Source: a bacterium
Lineage (GTDB): Bacteria > Electryoneota > JAOADG01
Assembly (NCBI GenBank): GCA_963681965.1
Contig: OY820579.1
Span: 2,656,001-2,720,000, forward strand
Length of the DNA stretch: 64,000 nucleotides
Direction: 5' to 3'
The position numbers and the translations under genes were made by a program. Positions 19,892 through 64,000 of this stretch are shown here, one piece after another. Under the pieces are notes generated by a model. It was not told where the DNA came from, did not search any database, and saw only the letters and a list, made by a program, of their open reading frames with translations. The stretch's first letter is position 1. Every line of letters begins with the position of its first letter.

Positions 19892-20367
19892 GTCGAACCG
19901 ATTCGGTCGAAAAAAACATTGCAGCAGCAGACTTCTTTATCGATTCCGATCCCGGCTTCGGTCAGGCAACGTCTATTCCGGTAGTTGTAGGAGAAGCCGC
20001 TACTATTTCGCTTACCGCACTTCTAAGCGGTCAAGCAAATTGCAATTGTGAATTGATTGTTCGCGTAAAAAATGCCAATGGAGTGTGAAGCGTCGCAGAA
20101 CAATATAGATTTGTGATCGCAGATGTTCCCGACTCGCCTGCTTTGCTTTGGATATCCTATTTGCAATCCAGTGCAGAATTATCCTGGCAGGCTTCACCCG
20201 GAACAGTGGCGGGATATCATATCTATCGCAATCAGAGTACCTATTTCACACTATCCGCACAAGGTACGTTAATAGGTACCGTCGATGGAATTACGACCAC
20301 TTACACCGATACTAACGTGATAGATAAATATTATTACCGTGTAACCTCATTTACGAACCTTAAATGA
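19892..20367 (+). pseudogene. Decayed 3' fragment of an EYFIDxDPG-repeat protein (paralog of 63113..>64000): one repeat plus the terminal FN3-like domain
   Basis: DNA similar to 63611-63650 and 63870-64000. It has a 1-nt deletion in the A-run near 19910, an in-frame TGA at 20086-20088 where the family has Trp (NANGV*S vs NGNWS), and no 5' part. Confidence 0.85.
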
Positions 20368-20389
20368 TTAATCCATAATTATATAATAT

Positions 20390-20958
20390 TGGTTTGCCCC
20401 CATTTTCTGTACCAGTGTCTATGTCACACTGGTCTCATTCCTGCGTAGCGTAGCGGAGCAGGAATGAGAGGTAACGCAGTTTCCGGCGCCGGCGGCAGAT
20501 AGCCCAAAGAACTGTGTGGTCGGATCGTATTGTAATGGTGCCGCCATTGTTCGATAATCACCTTCGCTTCCAGCATGGTATCAAAGATTTCACCCTTCAG
20601 CAACAGTTTCAACCGACAATTAAAGCTTTCGATGTAACCATTTTGCCATGGGCTGCCGGGAGTAATAAACAACGGCTTTACATCAACCCGGGGAAGCCAT
20701 GCCAGTACTTCATTCACCGTAAACTCAGGGCCATTGTCGCTGCGAACATGAACTGGTGTACCTCGTAATACAAACAGTTCTTCCAGTACGCAAAGAACAT
20801 CATCCGCCTTGATCTTCCGGGCATCCAGGATCGAAAGATATTCGCGGGTATATTCGTCCATGATCGCGAAGACCTTGAACGAACGACCATTCGACGTATG
20901 CCACGTCACAAAGTCGAAGATCCAGACGTGATCCGGATGTTCCGGACGAAGTCTGATA
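20390..20958 (-). mobile_element. Truncated IS3-family element (one end plus the integrase-core part of orfB), related to the element at 29971-32516
   Basis: End TGGTTTGCCCCCATTTTCTGTACCAGTG matches 29971 TGATCTGCCCCCATTATTTGTACCAGTG. ORF 20424..20972 is nearly identical to 30005..30730 (RSDNGPEF, PGSPWQNGYIESFN). Similarity stops near 20955. Confidence 0.9.
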
Positions 20959-20968
20959 TTGGCAATCT

Positions 20969-21889
20969 TCATCTCGAGACTATCCGCCTTATTTCCTTCT
21001 CTAACTCAAGAGTATTTACATCAGATCGAAGAATGCCTTTTCGATCAATTATTAACAGACGGGGTAAACTTGAAATACCCAAAGCTTTTTTCCAGTAATT
21101 TCTCTTCTCTAATCCAATCGGGGCAATAACTTCGTGCCAGGGGAGATCCGCTTTTAATAAGGCTTCCTGCGCTTTTTCAATTGTAAAATCATGATTAATT
21201 CCGATTACTTCAAATCCTTTCGAATGAAGTTCAGAATATATCTGTTTCAACATCGGCATTTTCTTCATACAAGGATTACACCAAGTTGCCCAGAAATCAA
21301 GTAGAATTACTTTGCCCAGAAAATTTCGCGAATTGATTATCATTCCATCAGCACATTTTATTTGGAAGGCGTATGGCTTGCCGATTTGTGGAAAAGGTAA
21401 TGCGCTTTCACCCATTTGTTGGAGTTGCTTGAAAGCATTTGGTGCAATGACATCTCTTAGATTATCCAGTGTCAATGCTTCGATTCCGAAGTAAGCCAGT
21501 CGATCGCAATTAAGTCTATTCGATGGCATAACGAATGTGTGTAATGAGACATTCTCCGTGGATCCACCAGTACTATTCTCAAATTCGAAACGGTTACCGC
21601 AAGAGTCAAAGCCAATCACTCGGAAGTCATACAGACCAGAAATTTTATCACTGGAATTTGCAACTGAAACCGATAAATCACCAGATCTCAGAATTTCGCG
21701 AGAAATTACAAAACCATTGATACAGCATAGTGGACTGGTATTATCTATCGGTTGAATTTGCCAGATCCATCCCGGTTGATTGGGGAACTGTCGAACCTCG
21801 GCATAAACAGTTGAATTTTTTGAAATCAAAAACACAAGTAGGATGAGCGCGGTAATAGATAACTGTATGAGTCTACTAACCTGTTTCAT
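20969..21889 (-). CDS. Exported TlpA/ResA-family thiol-disulfide oxidoreductase with an N-terminal extension
   Basis: Signal/anchor N-terminus; GKVILLDFWATWCNPC and LPRLLIIDRKGILR. Confidence 0.88.
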   Translation of the reverse strand: MKQVSRLIQLSITALILLVFLISKNSTVYAEVRQFPNQPGWIWQIQPIDNTSPLCCINGFVISREILRSGDLSVSVANSSDKISGLYDFRVIGFDSCGNRFEFENSTGGSTENVSLHTFVMPSNRLNCDRLAYFGIEALTLDNLRDVIAPNAFKQLQQMGESALPFPQIGKPYAFQIKCADGMIINSRNFLGKVILLDFWATWCNPCMKKMPMLKQIYSELHSKGFEVIGINHDFTIEKAQEALLKADLPWHEVIAPIGLEKRNYWKKALGISSLPRLLIIDRKGILRSDVNTLELEKEIRRIVSR

Positions 21890-22196: not shown

Positions 22197-25100
22197 TCAT
22201 TTCAACAAGTCGAAAGAGTTGCGTCGATCAAGATTCTTTTCCGACTGTTCGTGAATAGTGGTTCCCAATTCGTTGGAATTTGCGCAAGTTGCAGTAAACG
22301 TATTAAAAGCCGTTACCCGGTAATAGAACGCTGTCGATGGGAGGGCATTCGGAATTGTGAATTGAGTAATACTACCATCCGATACCGTTCCAATTAAAGC
22401 TACAGTTCCGGGTGGATTGAAGTATCCAGTAGTCGATCGATAGATATTATATCCCGAAACAGTACCAGTTGCCGCAGACCAGTTTAATACTAGATTATTC
22501 CCAACGACTGTAAGCGTCAGATTAGTAGGTGTAGTGGCAACCGCCCAACTGTTTCCAAACACATGAATCGAAACCGTCATTGCATTCGATGCGTTCGAGA
22601 TGATCGTCAAATCGCCGACAATAGAAGTTATCAAAGTAGGAGTCCAATTGAGTTGAAGACTCAATGAATCCCCGGAGAGAATAGTAATCGGAAAAGTATT
22701 CCAGTTGCTACTGATCCCGGAAGGTAATATCAGTTGTGTAATTGACAATGTGGCGGTTCCGGGATTTCGAACATATAATCCCTGATGACCGGTAGTACTA
22801 ACCTGAACTGATCCGAAAGATATCGATATAACACTAGCTTCGATTTGTGGTAGTGGTACCCAACAAATGCCTGCGAGTGAAATCGAATCTACTGGATTAT
22901 TCGTTGCAGATGAAGAGATGATTAAGGATCCGCTTAAAGCCGAACCCGATATTGGTGACCAAGTGATTTGCATCGCAAGCGAATCGCCGGGAGCAATCGT
23001 TACCGGTAAAGTATTACAGTTGTGCGTAACGGTTGGCGGAGCTGATATCTGCGTGATCGTATACGGATAGTTTCCGGAATTGAACAATATTAGTGAACGT
23101 TGTGCGGATAAATTCACTTGAACCGATCCAAAATCCAGTACAGAAACACTAGTCTCAATCACCGCCTGCGGTACCCAACTGGAACCGGTTAGAAATACAG
23201 TATCCACAGGCGTGTTAATGACATTCGAAATGATTATGCATCTACCTGATTGATCGATAAGGGTCGTGTTACTATTTGGTGTCCACGTAAGTTGTAATGC
23301 CACCGAATCGCCTGCAGCTATTGAAATCGGAAAGGAAGTCCAGTTAGCAGAAAAAGTTGGTGGAAAGAATAAATTACTGATACGGAGCGGTGCTAATCCA
23401 CCATTTCTCACCATTGTCGATCGAGTAACTTGATTTCCAACCATTACTGTTCCAAACGATACTGTTGCTGGATTCATCGAGATTGTCGGTTTCGGATACG
23501 TAAACAACAGCGCCGTTTTACTGATCGGTTGAAAACTATTGGATCCGTATTGTATGAAACTGGTACCGGTAGTTGCCCCCTGAATGCCAATAGTCGCATT
23601 GAAAACAGTTGGGGAGGGGATAGTATCATACTGAAATAATATGTCACCGCTGTTATTTAAAATAACTTGAAACCGAATTTGATTGTTCAGATCTCCAATT
23701 CGACGTGCCCAATAGGATATAACAAACCGACCATCAAGCAACCGCTGTGTCATCACCCGATCATTTGAGGTTGAAATCATCGTCAAATCGTCCCATAGTG
23801 GGAATAATACGCATGGACGGGATGCAGAGGCAGCAGGCAAATTGGTATTGTTGTAAGCTTGCCATACTGAAGGACCGAAAACAATGAACCCATTCGAACT
23901 AAAAGTAAGGGTATCGCCAACCGTCGATCCATAAAATGGCATCTGGAAGCCGCTATTGGAAATCGTACCTAACGCTTCATCGCCATTCAACCAAATTGCG
24001 CTACCGGTTGTTGAAATATCGATCCAATGATACACCGGACCGGAACTGGAATAGTTACCGGCAAACAGGTAATTACCGGTATAGGGACCACCGGTTTGAG
24101 GTGGAAGTACTGATGGTCCGAAAAAACTACCGGATGCAGGCAGTCGGATATTGCCGCTTGAATAAGATGCGTAAAAATAATAACTGTAATTTGCGGCATT
24201 AGATAACGTGACCGAAGTACTCCATACTTCCGTACCCGGTAACGATCCCGATTGTAATGTCATCGGATAGGAAGTAGAATTGAGATTGAGTAGTACTTGC
24301 GTCGGTGCGGTTCCCGTTACATAAGAAGTGTAGTTAACGGTGAATTGAAAGTTCCCGTTCACGACACCCACAGTCGGAAAAACCTCATTATTTGTTAGCA
24401 CGCTCGAAATCGCTGTTCCAATTAACATTGAACTAGTTGTACCACTGATTGCGTCTGATTCAATTGAAAGTGAACTCAACAGTGCACCTGACGCAGGAGG
24501 TTGCCAGGTCACATTGTATGAAGTGGAATCGCCAGCAGCGATCGTAACTGATGAAGTAGATGGAGTAACATTCGCCGGTGTGGTCATTCCGGTGATATGC
24601 AATGGTACAGCGCTGAAGTTCCTGATTTGGAAAGCTCGCGTTGAATTACCGTTAATTGGAACCAACCCAAAATCGATCGAAGCAGGAGTGATTTTACACC
24701 AAGGCAATGTCGGATCGAATTGAATCGCGAAATTTGATTCACCCGGCATAGTATTCGAGCCGAATTGAAGATAACCGCCGGGTAACATATTGTTTTGGAT
24801 ACCGATTGAAGCACTGAATTTATCGGCACCGATCGTAGTATTGTACTGATATCGGATCGTACCGTTACGGTACAAGATTGCTTCTGCTAGAATGGTTGAA
24901 GTCGGAAAGTATACATTGTGCGCATAGTATTCTATAATAAATCTGCCATCGAGCATATCCTTATACCAGATTCCTTCAGTCGAATTTGGCACGATTGCCG
25001 CATCATCCCAGAATAATGCCAACGTAGCAGTGGGTAGAGTCGCGGTGGGGAAGTTTACATTCACTGCCGTTGATATCGTGGTTGGTCCCAAAGTAATCAG

Positions 25101-26651
25101 TCCATTGGTGCTGACAGCAATATTTCCATTGTATTCCGATCCGTAAAAGGGGAAGATGAACGAACCTAAGCTAAAAGATGAAAATGCTTCGTCGCCGCTC
25201 AGTGATAATTTTGTTCCAGAAGAGCGGATGTCTACCCAATTGTACGCCGGTCCACTAGCATTGGTGCTTGTTCGATACATATAACCTGCTGCAGTGGGAG
25301 CGACGGTACTGGGGGGGCGAATATCGACGATAATAGTATCGTGTGCGACGCTGTCGTATGAATCAGTGGCGTTAACAATTACTGTCGAATATCCAAACGA
25401 GCTGCTAGATATCTGCAGATCAGTACCTACAATGGAAGGGGTGACAGAAGTACCTTGTCCGAAACTGGGAATAACCGAACAAGAATAGGTGAGGTGGTCG
25501 CCATAGGGTAGATCGGGATCGGAGAAAATAGTATCTAGATTTGCGATAGTAAGATTGGTAATGGGCGAATCGAGATACAGTGGTGCAATGTGGCGATCAA
25601 GCATGGGATTATTGTCTAATACCACTGAAAACGACAATTGATCGCGAATACTCCATCGTCCATGGCTGTCTTGGACTCGGAAATAGGCAACATGTGGTCC
25701 GAGTGGTAAGCCGGTTAATGGCGCTATAAGATGAATATTAGGCTGTTGTGACGGGATAAATGGAATAGAAATGCCATTACCATATCCGGGGTCACTATCG
25801 ATATAATACTCGCATCGGGTTATTGTTCCGATCGGGAGCGGATACGAGGATGTATCGCTCCAAACAAGAAAACTACTGGCAACAGGAACACTGTACGACC
25901 AAATTCCGCAATCGCCTTTAGCGCGAATGTAGATTTGATGAATACCGTTCGCGACGCCATTCAATGGAACCACAAATTGACCGTCAGTTGCATGTCCGGG
26001 ACTCGATGCCGCGACATAAAATCCATGTCCAGCACCGGGATCGTCGTCGATAAATGTTTCGAAACCGATAATATTGCCAGTTAAATTCGAGCTAATCGAG
26101 GTAGTATCTGTCCAAACCATGAAACGTGCGGTTCCTTGACTACCTAGCGACCATTTGCCATCATTGCACTTGGCTCTGATCGTGATCGTGTGAACGCCGT
26201 TACTAATTTGGTTGAGCGGCATCATGATCATCTGTGAGCAGGTGGTTGCGGGATTGAGTTGGGCAAAATAGGTACCATATCCTAACCCGGGATCGATATC
26301 AATGAAGCACTCGTAACCAACGATTGTTTTGCCGACAGTATCACTTGCAGTAGAATTGTCTGACCATAAAAGAAAACGATTATAGACAGGTGTTTGCAGT
26401 GACCAGTTACCATTATTGCTCTGGGCGCGAATACCAATTTGATGAATACCGGCACTCAATCCGGTTAAATCGGCATTGAAAGTAAAATTGATCACTGAAT
26501 CAGGATTAACTGGTACGATTCTTCCGTGACCAATTCCTTGATCAAGGTCAAAGTAGTATTCCAGCCGGGTGACTGATTGTGCATTCGCTAGAGCCACACA
26601 TAAAGTAACTAAGCACCATAGTGTTAGTGACAACTTCCATCGCCTTCTCAT
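22197..26651 (-). CDS. Large secreted protein: 4 EYFIDxDPG repeats, 2 nidogen-like beta domains, 4 choice-of-anchor D (ASH/Cep192-like Ig) domains, terminal FN3-like domain
   Basis: Signal peptide. Repeats EYYFDLDQG, ECFIDIDPG, ETFIDDDPG and EYYIDSDPG. Two 'GPxY(N/H)W(V/I)DI...PFYG' domains; four 'I(D/S)FG.V.V....(R)N.G..PL.I' domains; FYYRVTAFN. Confidence 0.88.
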   Translation of the reverse strand: MRRRWKLSLTLWCLVTLCVALANAQSVTRLEYYFDLDQGIGHGRIVPVNPDSVINFTFNADLTGLSAGIHQIGIRAQSNNGNWSLQTPVYNRFLLWSDNSTASDTVGKTIVGYECFIDIDPGLGYGTYFAQLNPATTCSQMIMMPLNQISNGVHTITIRAKCNDGKWSLGSQGTARFMVWTDTTSISSNLTGNIIGFETFIDDDPGAGHGFYVAASSPGHATDGQFVVPLNGVANGIHQIYIRAKGDCGIWSYSVPVASSFLVWSDTSSYPLPIGTITRCEYYIDSDPGYGNGISIPFIPSQQPNIHLIAPLTGLPLGPHVAYFRVQDSHGRWSIRDQLSFSVVLDNNPMLDRHIAPLYLDSPITNLTIANLDTIFSDPDLPYGDHLTYSCSVIPSFGQGTSVTPSIVGTDLQISSSSFGYSTVIVNATDSYDSVAHDTIIVDIRPPSTVAPTAAGYMYRTSTNASGPAYNWVDIRSSGTKLSLSGDEAFSSFSLGSFIFPFYGSEYNGNIAVSTNGLITLGPTTISTAVNVNFPTATLPTATLALFWDDAAIVPNSTEGIWYKDMLDGRFIIEYYAHNVYFPTSTILAEAILYRNGTIRYQYNTTIGADKFSASIGIQNNMLPGGYLQFGSNTMPGESNFAIQFDPTLPWCKITPASIDFGLVPINGNSTRAFQIRNFSAVPLHITGMTTPANVTPSTSSVTIAAGDSTSYNVTWQPPASGALLSSLSIESDAISGTTSSMLIGTAISSVLTNNEVFPTVGVVNGNFQFTVNYTSYVTGTAPTQVLLNLNSTSYPMTLQSGSLPGTEVWSTSVTLSNAANYSYYFYASYSSGNIRLPASGSFFGPSVLPPQTGGPYTGNYLFAGNYSSSGPVYHWIDISTTGSAIWLNGDEALGTISNSGFQMPFYGSTVGDTLTFSSNGFIVFGPSVWQAYNNTNLPAASASRPCVLFPLWDDLTMISTSNDRVMTQRLLDGRFVISYWARRIGDLNNQIRFQVILNNSGDILFQYDTIPSPTVFNATIGIQGATTGTSFIQYGSNSFQPISKTALLFTYPKPTISMNPATVSFGTVMVGNQVTRSTMVRNGGLAPLRISNLFFPPTFSANWTSFPISIAAGDSVALQLTWTPNSNTTLIDQSGRCIIISNVINTPVDTVFLTGSSWVPQAVIETSVSVLDFGSVQVNLSAQRSLILFNSGNYPYTITQISAPPTVTHNCNTLPVTIAPGDSLAMQITWSPISGSALSGSLIISSSATNNPVDSISLAGICWVPLPQIEASVISISFGSVQVSTTGHQGLYVRNPGTATLSITQLILPSGISSNWNTFPITILSGDSLSLQLNWTPTLITSIVGDLTIISNASNAMTVSIHVFGNSWAVATTPTNLTLTVVGNNLVLNWSAATGTVSGYNIYRSTTGYFNPPGTVALIGTVSDGSITQFTIPNALPSTAFYYRVTAFNTFTATCANSNELGTTIHEQSEKNLDRRNSFDLLK

Positions 26652-26675
26652 CGGAATTCCTCCTGGTTCGGGATG

Positions 26676-27665
26676 TCAGTATGCTCGCGCCGAAACTGTC
26701 ACGGGTAATCCGGTTTGGGTCGTTCCATGTCCGATTGTCTGAAACATTGTGATTTGTGGATAATAGGATCGACCGGAAAGTACATAGGCTGCTGGACCAC
26801 CAAAAGGACCGGCAGTTATACCATCCATACCTCCACTGATCGTCGGTGATCCCGCAGCTGTTTGGTACATTTGATCGCCTGAGCCGGTTCCTATGATCAT
26901 CGCAGAGACAGTAACATTGAAATGATTGAATAGGTCGGCTCGAGCGTTTCCGCCATTACCAGAAAAGAAATTGTATTCTGCTGCGGAATTCGAATGCAAG
27001 GTAAATGTCGAGCCGACTGCGATATTATTAAAAAAATCGGACCGATAGATATCGATCGAACCGCCGATATAATTATTGTATACAAGATTCATCGTGACCG
27101 ATGTACCATCACTGCATGTTAGATTGGATGTAATGATGTTGTTCTTGATTGTAGCAGTCGCATCGGTCATGATCGTTACCGATGAAACTTTCGATTGTTG
27201 AATGATGGTTGCTGTGCCCGACAAGTATACATTGTTACCATAACATTTTTTTATTGTCACGTTTGCAACGCCTTGATTGACTAGAATATTAGCAGTTTCG
27301 AATCCCTCGATTACTGAATTATCGCTTCCCGTTGCGAATGTAATGGTTCCGAAATGAGCACTGTTAGTATTGACCGGTGCTGGAATCAGATTCGTCAAGA
27401 AATAACCGGGACCAACGAAATACAATTGCTTCGAAATCGTTGCACTTCCATATCCACCATTGTTTTCACCAACACAGATGATCGTATCACCGATTGCTGC
27501 AGAATCGTTCGCACCTTGGGCAGTACGAAAATGAGCGACTGAACCGGGATTGCGATCGAGCACACGAATTGTTGCGTTAGCCGGATTGAAGCCGGCACTG
27601 AGTAAGGTTAGCAAAAGAACAAACAGTACAAGGAAATTGTGATGAGAGTGTACTTTCCTACTCAT
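26676..27665 (-). CDS. Secreted right-handed parallel beta-helix protein (module partner, copy 1)
   Basis: Signal peptide; AAIGDTI cap; Asn-ladder (IKNNII, VYNNYI, FFNNIA); ends GLPVTVSARAY; homologous to 62102..63097. Confidence 0.85.
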   Translation of the reverse strand: MSRKVHSHHNFLVLFVLLLTLLSAGFNPANATIRVLDRNPGSVAHFRTAQGANDSAAIGDTIICVGENNGGYGSATISKQLYFVGPGYFLTNLIPAPVNTNSAHFGTITFATGSDNSVIEGFETANILVNQGVANVTIKKCYGNNVYLSGTATIIQQSKVSSVTIMTDATATIKNNIITSNLTCSDGTSVTMNLVYNNYIGGSIDIYRSDFFNNIAVGSTFTLHSNSAAEYNFFSGNGGNARADLFNHFNVTVSAMIIGTGSGDQMYQTAAGSPTISGGMDGITAGPFGGPAAYVLSGRSYYPQITMFQTIGHGTTQTGLPVTVSARAY

Positions 27666-27954: not shown

Positions 27955-29970
27955 TTAATTAGTTGAAGTGTTGTATAGAATAAATCCAGACCATAGTTTC
28001 GGGTGTGGAACGCCCGTCATTTCCCGAGCGTCTCGAATTAATTCGATTTGCATTTCGTGAAAAGCTACCGCGATCGATTCGTTAAATAAGAGATTTTGAT
28101 AAAATTTCTGGACAGCTTGAAAACTTATTCTATCGGGTAATGGTTGAACTACCGCTACAACGCTATTTGCGCCAGCCTTTAAGAATGATCGAATTAAACC
28201 GATCGGACTTTCATGAATTCGCAATGTACCCAGACCAGTGTTGCATCCGGATAGAAACACTAGACTACCAGTGCATATATTCTCGGTATGTTCGATTTCG
28301 CTAGCTGTGACAATGCCGTTACCGTGATGCGGTTTACTACTACCGGATTCCAACCAATCATTCACACCCGAGAATACGATACCGCACTTTGCACTTTGCG
28401 ATAGAAATTCTTTCGGAGTGATTGCACGATTGTACTCGATATCTGTCGTTCGACCGTTCGCATCGCTTTGTGTATCGATCATATAAAAAAAACCGTGGGT
28501 TGCAATATGAAGAATCGTCGGTGATTGAATACGGAAGAATGACTGCTTCGTAGCATGAATTCCAGAATGATGAACTACTTTAAAATGGGATTGTGTAAGT
28601 GTATTATGTATCCATTTCCCCTCAAGTTCACTTGCCGGTAGGGGGGTAAAATTCGTAGTGAATCCGGCATTTGAAGTTGATGCTTGAGCAGAATATTTGT
28701 CTGAATCATCTGATCTCACGATAGATCGGAATTGGGTTTCGGATGGGGGGGATACTGAAAACCGAGGATTGGAAATCACGACGCACTTTCGGATTCCGTT
28801 TGTTAACATCGAACTGTAATATAAACCACTTCGCGCACTAAGAGCATACGAAATGTGAAACTTCTCAACAAGAAGAATATCGTTATCGTCGATTAATTGT
28901 TCGAATTGTAGCGACGCCAAGGTTCTATCTGGAACGATCAACAGTTTTCCAATACCGGGATCGATTGAAACTGAATTGAGTAACGGTTTAATCAGCAGTT
29001 GATACAATTGATTCGAAAGTGAATGCCATCGTACATAGCCGTCATCGTCTGTCGCAACATTTGCCAGTGTAAGTTCAGAAATTAAGTGATTGATGTGAGC
29101 AGCATCATTGATTACAATGAGATCGACTTCGACACCACGCTCTTTCCAATTGGTAATTACGAATGCGGTATATTGTCCTGTATTTCCACTTTCACTACCG
29201 GTATTTGTGTAATAGAAATCAATCACTGCAGTGTCAGGTGCCAATCTATTTGTAATATGTGATAAGGATAGTTCAAGCGAGTTAAATGTCCCAGGACGAT
29301 TCGTCTGTTCAACCGATAGTTCAGCAGACAATTCCTCATAACGTTTAATAAGTAAATTCCATTTGTCATTATTCGTTACGCATTTTCCGATAGCTAATTC
29401 GCTGAATGCTTCACTGATCGATCGAAGTTCGCGGATCGTTTTCGATGATTTTTTTCCAACTCGATTTTGTTGACGTGAATTGGATAAGTTTTTGAAAAAC
29501 TCTAGTTGTAAATAACCTTCAATTAAGTCTTTCGGTCGTATGTATGGTGATTTAAGAAATTGTAAAAATGATTGTACTACTTGAAATCCCATGGATTTAA
29601 AGATCGAGAGTTTGTTTGCGGAACTGTAAGGTGCTAGTACTTTTAACAAATTGTTTTGAAGACCGATACTCAGGAAGTAATAGATACGCGCTTTCGAATA
29701 TTTTTTCTTTTCCTGTAAGTAACAGTAACCCAAGTTCACTAAAGTATTACAATATTTCAATGTGTGATCGGTACCCCATTTAACTGAATCCCGTTGACTT
29801 GCACGCAAGTACTGTATCGCTTCGGGATACAGATGTAGTTCAACTAGTGTCGAGCCGATATTATGAAGTAATGGACTGTGATCGGATATTTTCCGATTGT
29901 GCTCAATTCGCCTCATTGATTTCCGATAGAAAGAAATCGCCAAATCTTGCCGATCCATTTTTACCAGAAG
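27955..29970 (-). pseudogene. 3' part of a TPR-CHAT (caspase-like cysteine protease) gene, separated from its 5' part by IS insertion
   Basis: CHAT dyad motifs LHIATHGFF and LVFLSGCNTGLG, plus PKLWSGFILY. Joins in frame to 32517..33330 once the IS and one GAAG copy are removed (…GLL-L-V-K-MDRQ…; 2826 bp, 941 aa). Confidence 0.9.
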
Positions 29971-30817
29971 TGATCTGCCCCCATTATTTGTACCAGTGTC
30001 TATGTCACACTGGTCTCATTCCTGCGTAGCGTAGCGGAGCAGGAATGAGTGGTAACTCTGTTTCCGGTGCCGGCGGCAGATAGCCCAAAGAGCTGTGCGG
30101 TCGAATCGTATTGTAATGGTGCCGCCATTGTTCGATAATCACCTTTGCTTCCAATATGGTATCAAAGATTTCACCCTTCAGCAACAGTTTCAACCGACAG
30201 TTAAAACTTTCGATGTATCCGTTTTCCCACGGGCTGCCAGGCGTAATAAACAAGGGTTGCACATCAACCCGGGGCAGCCACGCTAGTACCTCATTCGCCG
30301 TAAACTCAGGGCCATTGTCACTACGAACATGAATCGGTGTACCTCGTACTACAAACAGTTCTTCCAGTACGCAAAGAACATCATCCGCCTTGATCTTCCG
30401 GGCTACCAGGATCGCAAGGCATTCCCGGGTGTATTCGTCCATGATCGCAAAGATCTTGAACGAACGACCATTCGACGTATGCCACGTGACAAAGTCGAAG
30501 CTCCAGACATGATCCGGATGTTCCGGACGTAGACGGATGCAGGAACCATCATTCAGCCACAGTCTTCGACGCTTCTTCTGCTTCTTCGGGACCTTCAGTC
30601 CGGACTGTCGCCAGATCCGTTCCACCCGTTTGTGGTTTACCCGCCAGCCGATGTTACGGATCATCGCCGTTACGATCCGGTAGCCATACCCGCCATACTG
30701 GCAAGCCAGAAATACCACCAGCGAGACCAACGGGCCTTCGTGAGGTGGTACCCTCAGTTTGGACAGTTTTGTGCGAATCTTAGTTAGATTGCACCGCCCA
30801 CTGTCTGCTGTTTCTTG

Positions 30818-31702
30818 TCAGGCAGCTGCCTGACAAGAAAGATTTCTTAGACTATCGGTGTAGACTTCATCTGGGGTTTGATAGCCCAAGCCTTGGTGCG
30901 AACGTTCGCTGTTGTAGAACGAAAAATACTCACCGATGCTACGCTCTGCAATGCGAACTGAATCGTACCCTTTCAAGTATACTTCCTCGTACTTCAACGA
31001 CTTCCACAACCGTTCGACAAAACGGTTATCCATCCACCGACCTTTACCATCCATACTGATCCGAACGCCTGCCTCTTTCAAAACATCCGTAAATGCGATG
31101 CTGGTAAACTGACACCCTTGATCGCTGTTGAAGATCTCAGGCTTCCCATACTTCGACAATGCTTCCGTCAGCGCTTCCACACAGAAATCGGTGTCCAGCG
31201 TATTCGAAAGTCGCCACGACAGTACTTTCCGGCTGTACCAATCGATCACCGCCACCAGATACACAAAACCCCGAGCCAATGGGATGTACGTGATATCGGT
31301 TGCCCACACTTGATTCGCCCGATCTACCACAATATCGCGAAGCAGGTACGGATAAATCTTGTGTTCCTTGTCAGGAACCGTCGTACGCGGCTTGCGGTAC
31401 AATGCTTCCAGACCGAGGATGCGTAGCAAGGAACGAACCTTTTTCCGACCAACATCGATACCCTGCTTCGATAACTCCACCACCAGTTTACGGGCACCGT
31501 AGAACGGAACCTTCAGGTGAAGCTCATCCAGCGTTCGCAACAGCATCAATTTGTTCGAATCAAGCGGAACAGGGCGATAGTAGTAACTGCTGCGTGGAAC
31601 CTTGATCAAAGAACACTGCTGAACCAACGGTAAACGGGCACCCGGATCGATCAGCGCTTCACGCTCAGAACGCCCAAGCGACTGAGCCCCCGTGACAAAA
31701 AA
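30818..31702 (-). CDS. IS3 transposase OrfB (probably expressed as OrfAB via -1 frameshift)
   Basis: [20 protein letters not shown] and [10 protein letters not shown]. The frame is open upstream to a T6 run (31702-31697) in -1 relation to orfA. Confidence 0.88.
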
Positions 31703-53564: not shown

Positions 53565-56414
53565 TTACCGATTGAGGATATCAGATGGACTTTTACCAAA
53601 TAGTTTCTTAAAACTGCGATAGAAATAATTCGGATCGCGGAAACCAACCGAATACGCGACTTCAGATACCGAGGCGAAATTTTTCCGAGTTAAGAATTCC
53701 AAAGCGCGATTTAAGCGAATTTGCATGATGAAATCGAGTGGTGTTAAATCGGTCAGTAATTTTAATTTTCGTCGTAATTGACTTTCGCTTAAGTTGACGA
53801 CGCTTACAAAATCCTCCGGCGACAAATTTGGATTGTCCAGATTCTTCATAACCGCATCGCGGAGACGTTGGACGAATTTTTCATCGTATGAGGGTGATTT
53901 GATAGGTTCAGATTGAACAGTAATCGCTTTTTTCGCAAAGGCTTTGCGTAGATCCCGGTATCTGGTTACAATGTTTGTTAAGAGCGTTTCGATAATAGAG
54001 GCTTTGAATGGTTTTGTAACATAATAGTCGGCTCTACCTTTCAAGCCAGCGATTTGATCCATTTCGGAGGATCTAGCAGTTAGTAAAACTACCGGAACAA
54101 CGTGAAGGATCTCATCTTGCTTGACGAATTGCAGCAATTCAAATCCATTCATCCGTGGCATCATTACATCGGAAACAATAATATCTGGGAGAATTTCTCG
54201 CGCTAATTGAAGTCCTGCTTCACCGTCGTAAGCGTAATGAATCTCGAATTTACGCGAAAGAAATTTTCCCAATTCATCGCACAATTCGACGTTATCGTCG
54301 ACCAATAAGATCACGGGACGGTCGGTAGAGCGTCGAATTGGTTTTCGCGATTTAGTCTCAGTTTGAGCTTCTGATATGGTACTGGTGCTTGGAGGCTGTA
54401 AAAAACGGAGTGGTAGCTGATTATCATTGTATGACTGAGCTACTTCTTCGGATGCAAGGGGAAGTTCGAACCAAAAAGTGCTGCCACTTCCGAGTTCGCT
54501 TTTAAAACCAATCGCTCCAGCCATGCTTTCCACAAGGCTTTTGGTGATCGCAAGCCCGACACCACTCGAGGATTCTGTGCCGGTTGGTCGATTTTGCGTT
54601 ATTCCGAATTGCTGGAAAATATTGGATTGATCCTCTAATGCAATTCCCAATCCCTCGTCTTGAATCGAAATCCGACACTTGCCAGATGTGGACGGCGCGT
54701 CTGCACAAAGCACAGAGGATTTTACAATGATTCTTGTTCCGGTAGGCGAGTACTTGATAGCATTCGAAATCAGATTCTCTAGAATTTGTTCGAATGCACT
54801 TGGATCAGCCATGCCAATCGCAGGATGTGAAGGTTTCTGCCACTCGATGGAAATATCTTTTTTGGATCCTAGCGGACGATACTGATCAATGATATAATCG
54901 ATTATTCGATCAAACGCTATCGGTTGAATTTTCAGTAATTGGGATAGTGTTTCTAGATTGTTGAAATAGTCGAGATTCGCAATTTGGTTTAGCATTCGTT
55001 GCACGATATTCGATATCTGTTGTGTACGGTGTTTTCCCTTCGTGGGGTCAGATTCAAACAGCATTTGTTGATTCAATACATCGATCGTTAATAAAGGATT
55101 TTTTAAATCGTGTGCCACCATCTCGACAATGCGTTGTTTTTCGCGCTGGGCTTCATCTAATTTCCGGTTCAACTTTTCAAGAATAGTTGCTTTCTCTTGT
55201 TGGGTTGCAGCATCGCGAAGAGCTTGGTTTACTTGGAATCGCGCCTCCATTTTGGTCTGAGTAGAGATCTTTTCTTCGTTAAGGAATTGCGATCGAAGTG
55301 CGTCGTATCGAAGGAATTGTTGAATTGATCGGTCTAAATTTCCCATGCTTTGATTGACCAAAGCTAATTTATAATGCAAATTCATTTGAATTCGCACTGA
55401 TCCGATTTTTTCAACCAGATCAATAGCTTGAAGTAGTAATTCGTGTCCTTGGTTAAATTGTGAGTTGTCGATAAAATAGTGCGCTTTTGTTTCAAGTGAA
55501 TGAATTAAATTGGACGTGTCGGTGAGTTCTTCGAAAACCGGGATACATCGGTTGAGAGAATCGATCATTTCATCCCACCGCTTTAAATGATGATAAGCTT
55601 CTGCTAAATTGAGATGCGCGAGCGCGATTCCGCGACGATCGATTAGTTCCTCTTTAATGGTGATGCTACGTACATAGAAATCTATCGCAGCTTCCATTCG
55701 ATTACTGCGAACCATTAAATTTCCCAGATTGATTAATACGACCGACACCTGACGCCGATCGCCGGTTTGTTCATTGATCGCAAGCGCTTTTAGGTAATAC
55801 TCTTGCGCCTTATCCAGTTCATCTGTCCGGGAATAAATATTACCAATAGTATTAATCGTATTTGCAAGTTTATCCGTCGAACCACATTGTTCGCCGATTT
55901 CCACTGCTTCAAATAATTGGGATAATGCCAGCTCGTAATCGCCTAATTCCGAGTAAACGATAGCGGAATTATTCAGGATTCGGATCGTATTGACATTCGC
56001 TTTAATTGCGCGAGTAGCCGAAAGTGCGGATTGATAATACTCTATTGCTTGTTGATACCGACCAGATTGAAAATGAAGGATGCCTAAATTGGCTTTAATC
56101 GATATTGCAATATTGTGCATTTCATATTTGTCAGTGATCTCAAGTGCGGCCAATAAGTATTGTTCTGCCTTGGAATTATCAAAAGCTCGGATGTAGAGTA
56201 CACCGATCTCTCGCAGCAGCAAAGCGTGTAATTGTTCAGGTTGAAGATTTTTTAAATAGCTTAAAGATTCAATCGCATACTCAATAACCCGGTCTAGCGA
56301 CATAATTTTTAACTGGGATTCGATCTCATTAACAAATGTTTGCATATCGTCGATTGACGAGATCAATTTGATTTTTGTTTCGAGTTCAATACCTGTTAAC
56401 AATTGACTATTCAT
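53565..56414 (-). CDS. Soluble hybrid two-component regulator: TPR repeats, HisKA/HATPase, receiver and AraC HTH
   Basis: Tandem TPRs; VAHDLKNPL, NLISNAIKYS and GVGLAITK; ILLVDDN…SDVMMPRMNG; SEVAYSVGFRDPNYFYRSFKK. No TM segment. Start may be 56414 or 56432. Confidence 0.92.
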   Translation of the reverse strand: MNSQLLTGIELETKIKLISSIDDMQTFVNEIESQLKIMSLDRVIEYAIESLSYLKNLQPEQLHALLLREIGVLYIRAFDNSKAEQYLLAALEITDKYEMHNIAISIKANLGILHFQSGRYQQAIEYYQSALSATRAIKANVNTIRILNNSAIVYSELGDYELALSQLFEAVEIGEQCGSTDKLANTINTIGNIYSRTDELDKAQEYYLKALAINEQTGDRRQVSVVLINLGNLMVRSNRMEAAIDFYVRSITIKEELIDRRGIALAHLNLAEAYHHLKRWDEMIDSLNRCIPVFEELTDTSNLIHSLETKAHYFIDNSQFNQGHELLLQAIDLVEKIGSVRIQMNLHYKLALVNQSMGNLDRSIQQFLRYDALRSQFLNEEKISTQTKMEARFQVNQALRDAATQQEKATILEKLNRKLDEAQREKQRIVEMVAHDLKNPLLTIDVLNQQMLFESDPTKGKHRTQQISNIVQRMLNQIANLDYFNNLETLSQLLKIQPIAFDRIIDYIIDQYRPLGSKKDISIEWQKPSHPAIGMADPSAFEQILENLISNAIKYSPTGTRIIVKSSVLCADAPSTSGKCRISIQDEGLGIALEDQSNIFQQFGITQNRPTGTESSSGVGLAITKSLVESMAGAIGFKSELGSGSTFWFELPLASEEVAQSYNDNQLPLRFLQPPSTSTISEAQTETKSRKPIRRSTDRPVILLVDDNVELCDELGKFLSRKFEIHYAYDGEAGLQLAREILPDIIVSDVMMPRMNGFELLQFVKQDEILHVVPVVLLTARSSEMDQIAGLKGRADYYVTKPFKASIIETLLTNIVTRYRDLRKAFAKKAITVQSEPIKSPSYDEKFVQRLRDAVMKNLDNPNLSPEDFVSVVNLSESQLRRKLKLLTDLTPLDFIMQIRLNRALEFLTRKNFASVSEVAYSVGFRDPNYFYRSFKKLFGKSPSDILNR

Positions 56415-56814
56415 CTGTATGCCATCAAGCAATTCGATAATCGATAGTAAAAGTTAGCTCTCTATAGACGGATTAATCCAAAACTTCGATTAATGCATTG
56501 CTATTCATTATGCAATTTCTAGTACTTTGTTCGTTACTCAAATGCTATTTGAGCTGATTCACTATTGGATATAAAAATACGAAACGCTACGCTATTCAGC
56601 AATACAGAAGGACTGTAGTATTTTGAGTTAACTTTCAACGAAATCAATAAATTGTCAAATTAATCCAATTAATCTTATTGATCCAAAATTATTCCTTATA
56701 TTCTTCAGTTGAGAAACATTGGTTGTTAACTTGGAATTAATAGGTCATCGATTAGGTTTGAAGTTTTTCTCATTTGACATCAATCTATTGTATGAATTGT
56801 AATCAGTGCTATCA

Positions 56815-62101: not shown

Positions 62102-63097
62102 ATGTCTCGATTCTTTTTCTCTACTCTGATCGTTTTACTAATCGCTGGCATGTCGGGTGCAACCGTTCGAGTAGTAGACAACAATCCCAACGCAGTCGGC
62201 GTCTTTACGGATGGACAAACGGCAATCAATGCATCGGTTGCAGGAGATACCGTTTATTTTGCCGGTTCAGTTACTGGGTACGGCAGTATATCAATAAATC
62301 GACCGCTAACGATTATCGGAGCGGGTAATTTCCTGACAGAGTATCCGGAATCGCAAGCGCGCCCGCTTCCTTCCTATATCGTAAGTTTGTATCTAGCTGA
62401 AGGGGCAGCAGGGACAGTCGTTTATAGTATGAAATTCAATTCTGTTATCCTCTGGAGCAGTAATGTATCGCTCAGACGATGTGTTATCGATAACGGGGGA
62501 AATACTCTCATAAGTACCGATCGATTAATTTCGGATATATTGGTCGAACAATGCTATCTGTCAGGTTCTTACAACGGGTATCCTGCCATATTCTTACCTA
62601 ATACGCAGAACACCAATTTTTACAACAATTACATGGTAAGTACTTCCACAACTCAACCACTATTCTGGACAGGAACGAGTGCGTCGAATATCGATCTGGT
62701 CAATAATGTGATTTCGGGCAATGTTGAGCTTAATAATGGATACATGGCAAATAATATCATGATCAGCGGTACGCTGACGGCCAATAATTGCCGAACATTC
62801 AATAACATCGGTAGTGGTGTGCAATTCTCGGCATCGAATAACAACCAGCAGAATATCGATATGTCTTCTGTGTTCATCGGTACCGGTACAACCGATGGAC
62901 GATGGCAATTATCCGAAAGTTCACCGGCGCGAGCTGCGGGAATTGGGGGAGTGGATTGCGGTATCTTCGGGAATACTAATCCTTATATTCTGGCTTGTCT
63001 TCCACCGATACCGACGATAACCTCCTTTACCTCACAGGCTGCAACGACTGCTCCTGCAGGTCTTCCGATAACAATTCGTGCGCGCGGACATTACTAA
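62102..63097 (+). CDS. Secreted right-handed parallel beta-helix protein (module partner, copy 2)
   Basis: ATG 62102 after GAGGTGG; signal peptide; VAGDTVY cap; Asn-ladder; ends GLPITIRARGHY; homologous to 26676..27665. Confidence 0.87.
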   Translation: MSRFFFSTLIVLLIAGMSGATVRVVDNNPNAVGVFTDGQTAINASVAGDTVYFAGSVTGYGSISINRPLTIIGAGNFLTEYPESQARPLPSYIVSLYLAEGAAGTVVYSMKFNSVILWSSNVSLRRCVIDNGGNTLISTDRLISDILVEQCYLSGSYNGYPAIFLPNTQNTNFYNNYMVSTSTTQPLFWTGTSASNIDLVNNVISGNVELNNGYMANNIMISGTLTANNCRTFNNIGSGVQFSASNNNQQNIDMSSVFIGTGTTDGRWQLSESSPARAAGIGGVDCGIFGNTNPYILACLPPIPTITSFTSQAATTAPAGLPITIRARGHY

Positions 63098-63112: not shown

Positions 63113-64000
63113 ATGAAAATTTTCAACTTGCGAATCGCTTTCACGGTATTCGGTATTGTGCTTCCTTGCTTGTTATGCGCGAATCCCATCGTGCGAATCG
63201 AGTATTTTATCGACTCCGATCCGGGTTGGCATCAAGCAACGAGCTTGCCTAGTACGACTGCGGATAGTATTTCGATCAGTTCCACGATACCTGTGAACGG
63301 GTTGGCGCTGGGAATGCACACAGTAGGATTCCGTGCAATCGACAATAACGATGTGTCCAGCGCTCCCTTTTTTCGAAGTTTCTGGATCGATCGTGTCATA
63401 GCGACTCCACACGTTGTTCAAATCGAATACTTCATCGATCGCGATCCGGGTTATGGCAATGGCATTAGTCCCACTTTCGAACAAGGTAGCTCAGTCGGTG
63501 TTAGCTTATGTGTTGCCACCGATACGCTTTCAATCGGAATGCATGTATTGGTCGTACGAGTACGTGCCGCCGATAACCGGTGGAGTACTTCTTTCAACAG
63601 ACCATTCTGGGTAGAACCGATTCGGTCGGAAAAAAGCGTTGTAGCTGCAGAGTACTATGTCGACCGAGACCCGGGCGTTGGTCAGGCAATACCGTATCCG
63701 GTTATCCCAAATGTCGAAGTCAATCAGTCATTTGTTCTAGCAACCGATACTCTGTCACCGGGCCTTCATCTGTTTGGAATGAGATTTCGTGACAGCAGTG
63801 GAAACTGGACAATAGCTTTACAAAAAGGCTTCTGGGTAGAACGGATCCATTCGGTCGCTTCGGTTAATGCAGCCGAATATTACATCGATTCCGATCCCGG
63901 GTTCAATCTGGCAACGTCTATTCCGGTGGTCGCAGGAGAATCCGCTACTATTCCGTTTACCGCACTATTGAGCGGTCAAGCAAATGGCAATCATGAATTG
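63113..64000 (+). CDS. Secreted EYFIDxDPG-repeat protein; runs off the right edge
   Basis: Absent from the ORF track (no stop in the window). ATG 63113 after GAGG; MKIFNLRIAFTVFGIVLPCLLCA then repeats EYFIDSDPGW, EYFIDRDPGY, EYYVDRDPGV and EYYIDSDPGF. Confidence 0.88.
   Translation, partial: MKIFNLRIAFTVFGIVLPCLLCANPIVRIEYFIDSDPGWHQATSLPSTTADSISISSTIPVNGLALGMHTVGFRAIDNNDVSSAPFFRSFWIDRVIATPHVVQIEYFIDRDPGYGNGISPTFEQGSSVGVSLCVATDTLSIGMHVLVVRVRAADNRWSTSFNRPFWVEPIRSEKSVVAAEYYVDRDPGVGQAIPYPVIPNVEVNQSFVLATDTLSPGLHLFGMRFRDSSGNWTIALQKGFWVERIHSVASVNAAEYYIDSDPGFNLATSIPVVAGESATIPFTALLSGQANGNHEL

What the first reader, a model, noticed from the sequence alone, without database searches (positions are those of the whole stretch)
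22197..27665. Recurrent two-gene module (beta-helix + EYFIDxDPG-repeat protein): candidate split-Ig, strand-complementation scaffold
Seen: the same gene pair occurs here and at 62102->64000. Gene 1 is a ~330-aa secreted beta-helix protein with no anchoring domain but a conserved terminal tail (PQITMFQTIGHGTTQTGLPVTVSARAY vs PTITSFTSQAATTAPAGLPITIRARGHY). Gene 2 starts right after its signal peptide with four ~75-85-aa repeats 'EY(F/Y)IDxDPGxG…L..G.H.I.IRA….G.WS…F'. Inference: each repeat looks like an Ig-like sandwich lacking its first two strands, and the gene-1 tail has the alternating pattern of those missing strands. Gene 2 would then be a scaffold docking up to four beta-helix subunits by beta-strand complementation and holding them at the surface through its own C-terminal domains, a cellulosome-like logic without cohesin/dockerin. 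I know of no description of this mechanism for this pair.
Basis: partly seen in the sequence, partly recalled or inferred. Interest (0 to 1): 0.88.

Follow-up and report, generated by a model that had tools for sequence, protein, structure and literature searches.

The report
Conserved beta-helix plus repeat-scaffold gene pair
A small secreted beta-helix protein with a conserved two-strand tail is almost always encoded right next to a surface protein that starts with short Ig-like repeats, and the two probably form a head-and-stalk complex, though binding is not yet shown.

Summary
The window holds two copies of the pair, and the whole genome holds 7 modules (8 beta-helix genes, 7 repeat proteins, 30 repeats), always adjacent.

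The pairing holds far beyond this genome. Of 80 repeat-protein loci from other species, mostly Bacteroidota, 73 carry the beta-helix gene. The other 7 are cut at a contig end. From the beta-helix side, 12 of 12 and 18 of 19 tail-bearing genes have a clear repeat-protein neighbour.

Five natural fusions place the tail 9-12 residues before the first EYFxDxDPG repeat, with no signal peptide between. Neither family has a Pfam or NCBIfam model. In Bacteroidota, gene 2 is a type IX secretion (T9SS) cargo.

The repeats resemble the C-terminal part of Y_Y_Y/FN3-type Ig folds. They run about 30 residues short of full Ig-like domain models, and AlphaFold gives each only three long strands.

The functional pairing is strongly supported. 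The strand-complementation mechanism and the four-subunit stoichiometry remain plausible but unproven. I found no prior description.

The parts
26676..27665 (-). Module 1, gene 1: secreted right-handed beta-helix protein, 329 aa
   Evidence: ORF. AlphaFold2 model has mean pLDDT 89.5 and many short strands typical of a beta-helix. Best Foldseek matches are PL6 lyases and pectate lyases, all weak (best E 2.8e-3). No Pfam or NCBIfam family.
27573..27665 (-). Gene 1 signal peptide (aa 1-31, cleavage inferred after ANA)
   Evidence: Read from the sequence. The model has a helix at 8-23. The cleavage site is an inference.
26679..26768 (-). Gene 1 conserved C-terminal tail (aa 300-329), modelled with two beta-strands
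   Evidence: Strands E304-310 and E322-327, pLDDT about 77-82. Conserved across the family (alignments A1 and A3). The last 46 aa are more conserved than the body.
22197..26651 (-). Module 1, gene 2: 1484-aa secreted multidomain protein
   Evidence: ORF. Pfam finds DUF1573, four ASH/HYDIN-type Ig domains and fn3; NCBIfam finds choice-of-anchor D.
26340..26573 (-). EYFxDxDPG repeat 1 of gene 2 (with linker)
   Evidence: hmmsearch aa 27-97, i-E 2.4e-18. Coordinates.
26094..26324 (-). EYFxDxDPG repeat 2
   Evidence: hmmsearch aa 110-172, i-E 5.1e-12.
25836..26072 (-). EYFxDxDPG repeat 3
   Evidence: hmmsearch aa 195-265, i-E 4.8e-13.
25596..25823 (-). EYFxDxDPG repeat 4
   Evidence: hmmsearch aa 277-349, i-E 1.7e-25.
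22296..22532 (-). FN3-like domain near the C-terminus of gene 2 (aa 1374-1452)
   Evidence: Pfam fn3, 26.3 bits against a cut-off of 25. The same domain lies within 51 residues of the C-terminus of 26 of the 30 ORFs that match it in this genome.
62102..63097 (+). Module 2, gene 1: beta-helix paralogue, 331 aa from the ATG (ORF opens at TTG 62051)
   Evidence: E 1.7e-26 to module-1 gene 1. Weak Pfam Beta_helix hit, 16.9 bits.
63002..63094 (+). Module 2, gene 1 tail (aa 301-331)
   Evidence: Sequence, aligned in A1 and A3.
63113..64000 (+). Module 2, gene 2 (first 296 of 398 aa; runs off the window)
   Evidence: AlphaFold2 model of the full protein has pLDDT 85.3.
63188..63862 (+). Repeats 1-3 of module-2 gene 2 (63188-63412, 63413-63637, 63638-63862). 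Repeat 4 starts at 63863 and leaves the window.
   Evidence: hmmsearch i-E 2e-25 to 2e-28. Coordinates.

Best explanation
The pair encodes a two-part extracellular 'head and stalk' assembly.

Gene 1 is a Sec-exported right-handed beta-helix, the head. It has no sorting or anchoring domain of its own, and its conserved last ~30 residues are modelled as two beta-strands. Gene 2 is the carrier. It begins with 2-8 short Ig-like EYFxDxDPG repeats (Y_Y_Y/FN3-like, each about 65 residues plus a linker). It continues into variable stalk and anchoring domains. In Bacteroidota those include a T9SS C-terminal sorting domain, often followed by a PorP/SprF gene.

I propose that the tail docks onto the repeats by beta-sheet augmentation or complementation. 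The repeats look like sandwiches whose first sheet is under-populated. Docking would let the beta-helix be carried with, and displayed on, the repeat protein.

Shown:
- the two families and the conserved tail;
- near-obligate adjacency and gene order;
- rare in-frame fusions exactly at the tail/first-repeat junction;
- the T9SS-cargo nature of gene 2 homologues.

Inferred:
- physical binding;
- that the tail is the docking element;
- that the repeats are incomplete folds;
- the number of heads per carrier (one or several);
- export of the head together with the carrier.
For: (1) Obligate pairing.
- In this genome, 8 of 8 beta-helix genes and 7 of 7 repeat genes lie in adjacent same-strand modules.
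- Of 80 repeat-gene loci from other species, 73 have the beta-helix ORF: 72 upstream on the same strand and 1 downstream. The 7 without it have 150 nt or less of upstream sequence.
- From the beta-helix side, 12 of 12 tail-bearing loci in relatives have the repeat gene downstream.
- In an even sample of 81 genomes of the phylum of L036, 13 genomes had the family. Of the 19 gene rows, 18 have a clear repeat neighbour and 1 has a weak one.

(2) The tail goes with the partner.
- 17 distant beta-helix relatives without the tail, several ending in a C-terminus that looks like a T9SS sorting domain by eye (not scanned with an HMM), have no repeat neighbour. The one exception is a single weak in-ORF hit.
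- A broken copy (L121) and a tail-less copy (L122) have none.

(3) Fusions at one junction.
- In L111, P0083, P0183, P0220 and P0112 the order is beta-helix, tail, 9-12 residues, first repeat, with no signal peptide between. The 9-12 residues are about an inter-repeat linker length.
- The fused proteins continue into SprB repeats or LRR/Ig domains. P0220 and P0112 end in a T9SS sorting domain.

(4) The tail is constrained. Mean pairwise identity is 0.46 against 0.30 for the body among this genome's paralogues, and 0.34 against 0.295 over 61 sequences.

(5) The minimal Bacteroidota gene 2 is only a signal peptide, 4 repeats and a T9SS type A domain (L047, L090). That leaves little function other than carrying something.

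(6) The repeats look under-built.
- The model shows three long strands per repeat and an unpaired 20-residue middle segment.
- Ig-like Pfam models match only with their last third, leaving the repeat about 30 residues short on the N-terminal side. The tail is about 28-30 residues long.

(7) L111 has a free tail-bearing beta-helix gene directly upstream of the fused gene. Several loci have 2-4 beta-helix genes before one repeat gene. Both are compatible with more than one docking site.
Against: - The tail has no significant similarity to the repeat, to FN3 first strands or to any Pfam model.
- AlphaFold models the repeats confidently without any partner (pLDDT 85.3), so they may be self-sufficient small domains. 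The DSSP reading is indirect, because no coordinates or single-repeat model were available.
- The tail is also modelled with fair confidence in the monomer (pLDDT about 80) and could simply cap its own helix.
- All repeats are equally conserved, and the most conserved part is EYFxDxDPG in every repeat. That fits a purely structural role, for example metal binding, as well as docking.
- Gene dosage is usually one beta-helix gene to 3-8 repeats.
- There is no paralogue-specific covariation within this genome (r 0.24; 945 of 5000 shuffles as high).
- Some gene 2 homologues carry other domains before the repeats (L039, L043, L099, L105).
- In this genome gene 2 lacks a T9SS type A domain, although the genome has at least 150 such matches and a SprA. 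How gene 2 is anchored here is therefore unknown.
Confidence: 0.4

Rival explanations
1. A head-stalk complex exists, but the repeats are complete, self-sufficient small beta-sandwich stalk modules. The invariant DxDPGxG loop would stabilise them, for instance by binding a metal ion. The tail is a 'neck' that joins only the N-terminal end of gene 2, one to one, without completing any fold.
For: - Fusions have one beta-helix in cis with 5-8 repeats, and the tail sits only before repeat 1.
- The repeats are modelled confidently on their own.
- All repeats are equally conserved.
- Usually there is one beta-helix gene per module.
Against: - Repeat 1 is not distinguishable from the later repeats in conservation.
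- Loci exist with 2-4 beta-helix genes, and L111 has a free beta-helix gene beside a fused one.
- The repeats are about 30 residues shorter than the Ig-like models they resemble.
Confidence: 0.2
2. There is no stable complex. The genes are co-transcribed functional partners, for example a secreted glycan-acting beta-helix enzyme and a repeat protein that binds the same substrate or surface. The tail would be just the C-terminal cap of the helix.
For: - The nearest folds of gene 1 are polysaccharide lyases and esterases, though weakly (best E 2.8e-3).
- Operon partners need not bind each other.
- Neighbouring two-component regulators in 24-28 of 80 loci suggest a regulated, substrate-responsive cassette.
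Against: - Recurrent in-frame fusions at exactly the tail/repeat junction.
- Tail-less relatives lack the partner.
- The tail is more conserved than the body.
- A beta-helix protein without a sorting domain would stay in the periplasm of a T9SS organism. In the passages I read, a signal-peptide fusion lacking a CTD served as the control construct in T9SS export assays of F. johnsoniae (PMC10994853).
Confidence: 0.2
3. Gene 1 is a dedicated periplasmic helper. It transiently caps the incomplete repeats of gene 2 until export, as a chaperone does in chaperone-usher pili, and it is not part of the final surface structure.
For: - The repeats seem to be under-built.
- Gene 1 lacks any sorting domain.
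- The genes sit in tight, often overlapping arrangement.
Against: - Natural fusions keep the beta-helix covalently at the N-terminus of the exported protein.
- A roughly 300-residue beta-helix is an unusual chaperone.
- Modules with 2-4 diverged beta-helix genes look like alternative heads rather than helpers.
Confidence: 0.1

Closest known systems
Donor-strand complementation in chaperone-usher and type V pili (recalled. The search listing shows PMC4789730 on Mfa4, title and abstract start only)
   Same: An incomplete Ig-like fold would be completed in trans by strand(s) from another polypeptide. The products are secreted surface structures.
   Different: - Here a two-strand C-terminal segment of a beta-helix protein would be the donor.
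- The acceptor is a tandem array inside a T9SS cargo.
- No chaperone or usher genes are among the recurrent neighbours I annotated.
- Complementation itself is not shown.
Cohesin-dockerin scaffoldins (cellulosome)
   Same: A repeat scaffold could hold several catalytic or adhesive subunits, each bearing a short conserved C-terminal docking element. The scaffold carries its own anchoring domain.
   Different: No cohesin or dockerin domains are present. The only hit was a sub-threshold Dockerin_1 match in one homologue (P0045, 16.8 bits against 22.9). The docking element is about 30 residues of beta-strand, not an EF-hand pair. Multivalency is untested.
T9SS cargo proteins with C-terminal sorting domains and PorP/SprF partners (SprB-type adhesin cassettes; the sprCDBF operon is recalled)
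   Same: - Gene 2 homologues carry Por_Secre_tail or CHU_C-type domains.
- PorP/SprF lies directly downstream in 19 of 80 loci.
- P0083 has SprB repeats.
   Different: The upstream tail-bearing beta-helix partner and the N-terminal EYFxDxDPG array are not part of any described T9SS cassette that I could find. This genome's gene 2 copies lack the type A domain.
Y_Y_Y domain (PF07495) of Bacteroides hybrid two-component sensors such as BT4663
   Same: The second half of the repeat matches Y_Y_Y profile positions about 26-65. Three homologues score above the Pfam cut-off (29.3-30.0 against 26.6). Atlas neighbours are auto-named Y_Y_Y (score 0.87, a lead only).
   Different: The window's own proteins do not reach any threshold. 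There are no beta-propellers. The solved Y_Y_Y domain is described as 120 residues with an extra strand relative to a 7-stranded, 85-residue sandwich (passages of PMC5121618). The repeat core is about 65 residues.
Tat 'hitchhiker' co-export of signal-less subunits (PaoABC; PMC4273604, search listing and abstract start only)
   Same: A folded protein without its own targeting signal is exported by binding a partner that has one.
   Different: It uses a different membrane and machinery. For T9SS I found no description of such co-export, and nothing here demonstrates it.

Membership tests
Right-handed parallel beta-helix (Pfam Beta_helix PF13229 / pectate-lyase-like fold), for gene 1 | Predicted or solved right-handed beta-helix fold | tested here: met
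   AlphaFold2 pLDDT 89.5 and pTM 0.84, with stacked short strands. Foldseek top matches are beta-helix lyases and esterases with probability up to 1.00, but the best E is 2.8e-3.
Right-handed parallel beta-helix (Pfam Beta_helix PF13229 / pectate-lyase-like fold), for gene 1 | Pfam PF13229 score at or above the gathering cut-off | tested here: not met
   16.9 bits against 25.9 for 62102-63097. No hit for 26676-27665.
Polysaccharide lyase PL6 / pectate lyase enzymes, for gene 1 | Conserved catalytic and metal-binding residues | not tested
   Structural matches were too weak (9-15% identity) to map residues, and no coordinates were available.
Y_Y_Y domain (PF07495), for the repeats | HMM score at or above the gathering cut-off (26.6 bits) | tested here: inconclusive
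   No hit in the window's proteins at E <= 0.1. Among the homologues scanned, P0062, P0055 and P0073 score 29.3-30.0 bits, and P0030 and P0045 are below the cut-off. Matches cover only profile positions about 26-65.
Y_Y_Y domain (PF07495), for the repeats | Context: follows two beta-propellers in a periplasmic sensor | tested here: not met
   Repeats start within 67 residues of the N-terminus in 139 of 149 top homologues. No propeller families were found.
Fibronectin type III (PF00041), for the repeats | HMM match of the repeat to fn3 | tested here: not met
   fn3 matches only the C-terminal domain (aa 1374-1452; aa 323-397 of P0024), never the repeats. hhalign of the repeat against this genome's FN3-like domains gives probability 0.4%.
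T9SS type A cargo (TIGR04183 / PF18962), for gene 2 | C-terminal Por_Secre_tail domain | tested here: not met
   No hit in the window's gene 2 proteins, although the genome has at least 150 matches elsewhere. It is met in Bacteroidota homologues, for example L047 at 52.7 bits and L090 at 49.9 bits against a cut-off of 23.
Cohesin-dockerin system | Cohesin and dockerin domains | tested here: not met
   Neither is found in the window's proteins. One homologue has a sub-threshold Dockerin_1 hit.
Donor-strand complementation systems (chaperone-usher or type V pili) | Acceptor Ig-like fold lacking strand(s) that a partner supplies | tested here: inconclusive
   DSSP of the model and length comparison with Ig-like Pfam models suggest a short fold. 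No single-repeat model or coordinates were available.
Donor-strand complementation systems (chaperone-usher or type V pili) | Dedicated chaperone and usher genes in the locus | tested here: not met
   Of the neighbour clusters in the 80 loci, the three largest and two smaller ones were scanned against Pfam. They are PorP/SprF, TPR histidine kinases, response regulators, dihydroorotate dehydrogenase, and one cluster with no family hit.

The most novel reading that the evidence does not exclude
An Ig/FN3-like domain is split between two genes. The first two strands form the C-terminal tail of a beta-helix protein, and the remaining strands form each EYFxDxDPG repeat of a T9SS cargo. Reassembly in the periplasm would let sorting-signal-less beta-helix 'heads' ride through the T9SS. 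They would then be displayed, several per carrier, on a repeat scaffold. That would be a widespread, cohesin/dockerin-independent docking system in Bacteroidota and related phyla.
Probability: 0.15. Interest if true: 0.9.

Novelty: new variant of a known kind. Interest (0 to 1): 0.65.

Why it matters
The repeat family is large. A search with a fused beta-helix-plus-two-repeat query found 6,533 representative clusters at E <= 1e-3 (this count mixes both families). A pattern scan found at least 592 loci in species-representative genomes. Neither the repeat family nor its constant beta-helix partner has a Pfam or NCBIfam model. Five literature searches found no description of the pair.

If the two proteins bind through the tail, this would be a new way of loading proteins onto T9SS-exported surface fibres. 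It could also be the first case of co-export through the T9SS. It would give a functional label to many 'hypothetical' surface proteins of Bacteroidota. The idea is directly testable with two recombinant proteins.

Tried and rejected
- Complex prediction. I sent gene 2 repeats (A4, residues 24-330) with mature gene 1 (A3, residues 21-331). The result was no verdict: ipSAE 0.00 and 0.26 against a mark of 0.32, and the controls were not run.
- Tail against repeat HMM, and hhalign of tail against repeat. Nothing significant; only a 6-column 'IRAR' match and a 17-column match at probability 1%.
- hhalign of tail against this genome's FN3-like domains. The best alignment puts the tail on the FN3 first two strands, but at E 0.41 and probability 0.1%, so it is not evidence.
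- hhalign of repeat against the FN3-like domains. Probability 0.4%.
- Profile searches of PDB sequences with A5 and A4. No significant hit. The best was E 0.02, to a short antenna protein that shares the AEYYxDxDPG motif; I take that as chance.
- Foldseek and VIA-align on the gene 2 model. Matches were tandem FN3/Ig arrays, dominated by the C-terminal FN3.
- The search for homologous proteins with 'longer' for gene 1 fusions. None found, which the tool says is weak evidence. Fusions were later found by other routes.
- Mirror-tree correlations. Gene 1 and gene 2 distances correlate over 61 pairs (r 0.53-0.67; 0 of 500 shuffles as high). The tail does not correlate better than the body, and there is no signal among the 7 paralogous modules. 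Co-inheritance explains this result.
- First repeat against later repeats. No difference in HMM score or conservation.
- Pfam on the five fused proteins. No family spans the tail/repeat junction.
- Lipoprotein anchoring of gene 1. I rejected this by eye: most family members have no cysteine at the end of the signal peptide (sequences).
- Literature. No paper describing the pair, the motif or T9SS co-export was found in the held library.

Full report
**What is in the window**

Gene 1 (26676..27665, minus strand, 329 aa) and gene 2 (22197..26651, minus strand, 1484 aa) lie 24 nt apart. A second pair lies at 62102..63097 and 63113..64000 on the plus strand, 15 nt apart. The second gene 2 leaves the window and is 398 aa in the genome.

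They are homologous (E 1.7e-26).

A repeat HMM finds four repeats directly after the signal peptide in each gene 2. The 1484-aa protein continues into DUF1573, four ASH / choice-of-anchor D Ig-like domains and an FN3.

**It is a genome-wide module**

The window lies in a single 4.24-Mb contig. A six-frame scan finds 8 beta-helix paralogues and 7 repeat proteins carrying 30 repeats. No repeat occurs anywhere else. All of these genes sit in 7 same-strand modules with gene 1 directly upstream of gene 2, and one module has two gene 1 copies. All 7 gene 2 proteins end in an FN3-like domain.

**The pairing elsewhere, from the repeat side**

Gene 1 homologues from the 5.8-billion-protein search are 324-367 aa. 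All keep the ending PY-x-LSG-x-P-x-IP-x-I, then 9-12 residues, then G-L-x-V-x-I-K-A-K.

The scan of species-representative genomes used the pattern EYF[IFL]D[STN]DPG. The 80 best loci were kept. They are nearly all Bacteroidota, plus FCB-group and Calditrichaceae records.

- Local HMM searches find a beta-helix family ORF in 73 of the 80 loci.
- In the 7 loci without one, the repeat gene starts within 150 nt of the contig end.
- In 72 loci the beta-helix gene is upstream on the same strand. In L059 it is downstream.
- Several loci carry 2-4 beta-helix genes before one repeat gene: L069, L071, L091, L101, L105 and L111.

**The pairing elsewhere, from the beta-helix side**

- In relatives of this genome, 12 of 12 loci whose match includes the tail have a repeat gene downstream.
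- 17 loci hold distant, tail-less beta-helix proteins, several ending in a C-terminus that looks like a T9SS sorting domain by eye (not scanned with an HMM). None has a repeat neighbour, apart from one weak in-ORF hit.
- In an even sample of 81 genomes of the phylum of L036, 13 genomes have the family. Of the 19 gene rows, 18 have a clear repeat-protein neighbour and 1 has a weak one.
- A broken copy and a tail-less copy found have none.

**Fusions**

L111 encodes a single ORF in which the beta-helix and its tail are followed after 9 residues by EYFFDTDPG and further repeats, with no signal peptide in between. A free tail-bearing beta-helix gene sits directly upstream.

I searched 1.84 billion representatives with the first 520 residues of this protein. 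Among the top 150, all 149 new proteins contain repeats, and 4 of them (P0083, P0183, P0220, P0112) are beta-helix-tail-repeat fusions. In these the tail precedes the first repeat by 9-12 residues.

The junction sequences differ, apart from L111 and P0083, which share theirs. I judge by eye that there were at least two or three independent fusion events. The fused proteins go on into SprB repeats, a MopE-type metal-binding motif (P0183), or LRR and Ig domains. P0220 and P0112 end in a T9SS sorting domain.

In 139 of the 149 proteins the first repeat starts within 67 residues of the N-terminus.

**What the parts look like**

*Gene 1.* The AlphaFold2 model has pLDDT 89.5 and is a stack of short strands. 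The tail gives two strands (304-310 and 322-327) at pLDDT about 80. Foldseek finds only weak generic beta-helix matches (PL6 alginate lyase, E 2.8e-3). No Pfam or NCBIfam family fits. Atlas neighbours are unnamed or auto-named 'right-handed parallel beta-helix' Bacteroidota clusters. The last 46 residues are more conserved than the body.

*Gene 2.* The model of the 398-aa protein has pLDDT 85.3 and pTM 0.43. By DSSP, each repeat has a strand over the EYFxD motif, one short strand or bridge, a 20-residue stretch with no paired strand (block pLDDT 73-92), and two long strands over the G-H-L-x-R-x-D-x-G-x-W-S and F-x-V motifs.

Structure searches see tandem FN3/Ig arrays, but the C-terminal FN3 dominates the rigid alignments.

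Sub-threshold Pfam hits in homologues all use the last part of complete Ig-like models:
- GbpA_D3, positions 60-85 of 97
- Big_13, positions 65-92 of 102
- MalQ_N, positions 60-83 of 91
- Ig_J, positions 67-104 of 104
- BiPBP_C, positions 58-87 of 90

In the repeat, the matched motif begins only about 23-37 residues in. Y_Y_Y matches with positions 26-65 of its 65-position model, and three homologues pass its cut-off. The passages I read in PMC5121618 describe the solved Y_Y_Y domain as 120 residues, with one strand more than a 7-stranded 85-residue sandwich.

So the repeat core of about 65 residues is roughly 30 residues, or two strands, shorter than the complete domains it resembles. That is also about the length of the tail. 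It rests on weak hits and on a secondary-structure string, not on coordinates.

**Context in Bacteroidota**

Gene 2 homologues carry T9SS type A or CHU_C-type sorting domains, PKD, Big, LRR or SprB repeats. The smallest are just a signal peptide, four repeats and a type A domain.

A PorP/SprF gene lies directly downstream in 19 of the 80 loci. TPR histidine kinases occur in 24 loci and response regulators in 28.

From the passages read in PMC9251779, T9SS substrates cross the outer membrane folded and need a folded C-terminal domain. In the passages read in PMC10994853, a signal-peptide fusion lacking a CTD was the control construct in T9SS export assays. Gene 1 has no such domain. If it acts outside the cell, it needs a carrier.

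This genome has a SprA and at least 150 type A sorting-domain matches. Its gene 2 copies nevertheless end in an FN3-like domain instead.

**Interpretation**

The near-obligate synteny, the link between the tail and the partner, the fusions at one precise junction, and the 'repeats-only' cargo proteins together make a physical head-stalk partnership the best reading.

The tail is the obvious docking element, and sheet augmentation of an under-built Ig-like repeat is the simplest mechanism. Neither point is demonstrated.

It is also open whether one head or several bind a carrier.
- All repeats are equally conserved.
- Some loci have several beta-helix genes, and L111 has a free copy beside a fused one.
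- Yet most modules have a single gene 1.

I give about 0.4 to docking through the tail onto the repeats. I give about 0.15 to the full split-domain, multivalent, co-export picture.

**Comparison and novelty**

The logic resembles three known systems: donor-strand complementation in pili, cohesin-dockerin scaffolds, and hitchhiker export. The defining parts of those systems are absent (see the membership tests).

I found no paper on the pair, the motif or T9SS co-export in five searches. There is no curated family for either protein.

I therefore file it as a new variant of known docking and complementation systems, attached to T9SS cargo. It is a widespread, unannotated gene pair with a clear experiment to do.

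Noticed in passing
window 22296-22532 and the C-termini of all 7 gene 2 proteins (e.g. L004:4064-4306); genome-wide: 30 ORFs match the same FN3-like domain, and in 26 of them it lies within 51 residues of the C-terminus; most are 1500-3900 aa. In five gene 2 proteins and two others the protein stops 0-3 residues after the F-strand motif YYYRVTAF. The model shows six strands, and FN3 templates of 88-99 residues align only over about their first 78 residues. The last strand may therefore be missing. This could be a lineage-specific C-terminal sorting or docking domain.
   Followed up: partly
window 20113-20972 and 30005-31627: Integrase-core (rve) transposase ORFs at 20424-20972, 30005-30730 and 30818-31627 flank module 1. 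An orphan 84-aa fragment of the FN3-like C-terminal domain lies at 20113-20367. This suggests insertion-sequence-driven rearrangement around the module.
   Followed up: no
window 53565-56432: A hybrid TPR / histidine kinase / receiver / AraC regulator. It combines the domains of the TPR histidine kinases and the HK/receiver/AraC hybrids that recur next to the module in other species' loci. It lies about 6 kb from module 2.
   Followed up: no
window 27955-29958 and 20969-21889: A CHAT-TPR protein lies directly upstream of module 1 and a thioredoxin-like (redoxin) protein directly downstream. Neither recurs beside the other modules examined.
   Followed up: no
L111:4831-10675: A free tail-bearing beta-helix gene lies directly upstream of a beta-helix-repeat fusion gene. 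If the fused tail occupies the first repeat, the free copy would need another site.
   Followed up: partly
L091:2214-12292: Four consecutive beta-helix genes precede one repeat protein that has four repeats. The match in number may be coincidence.
   Followed up: no
window 22197-26651, aa about 455-650 and 850-1050 of the 1484-aa protein: Two similar internal segments of about 200 aa (each with a motif like ...W-x-D-I-S-x-x-G-x-x-x-x-L-x-G-D-E-A...F-x-F-Y-G...) have no Pfam hit.
   Followed up: no
L039, L043, L099, L105: In some species the repeat array follows other N-terminal domains in the same ORF. By eye these look like IPT-like repeats, a lectin-like domain, or a metalloprotease-like region plus FN3; they were not scanned. 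The repeats are therefore not always at the mature N-terminus.
   Followed up: no
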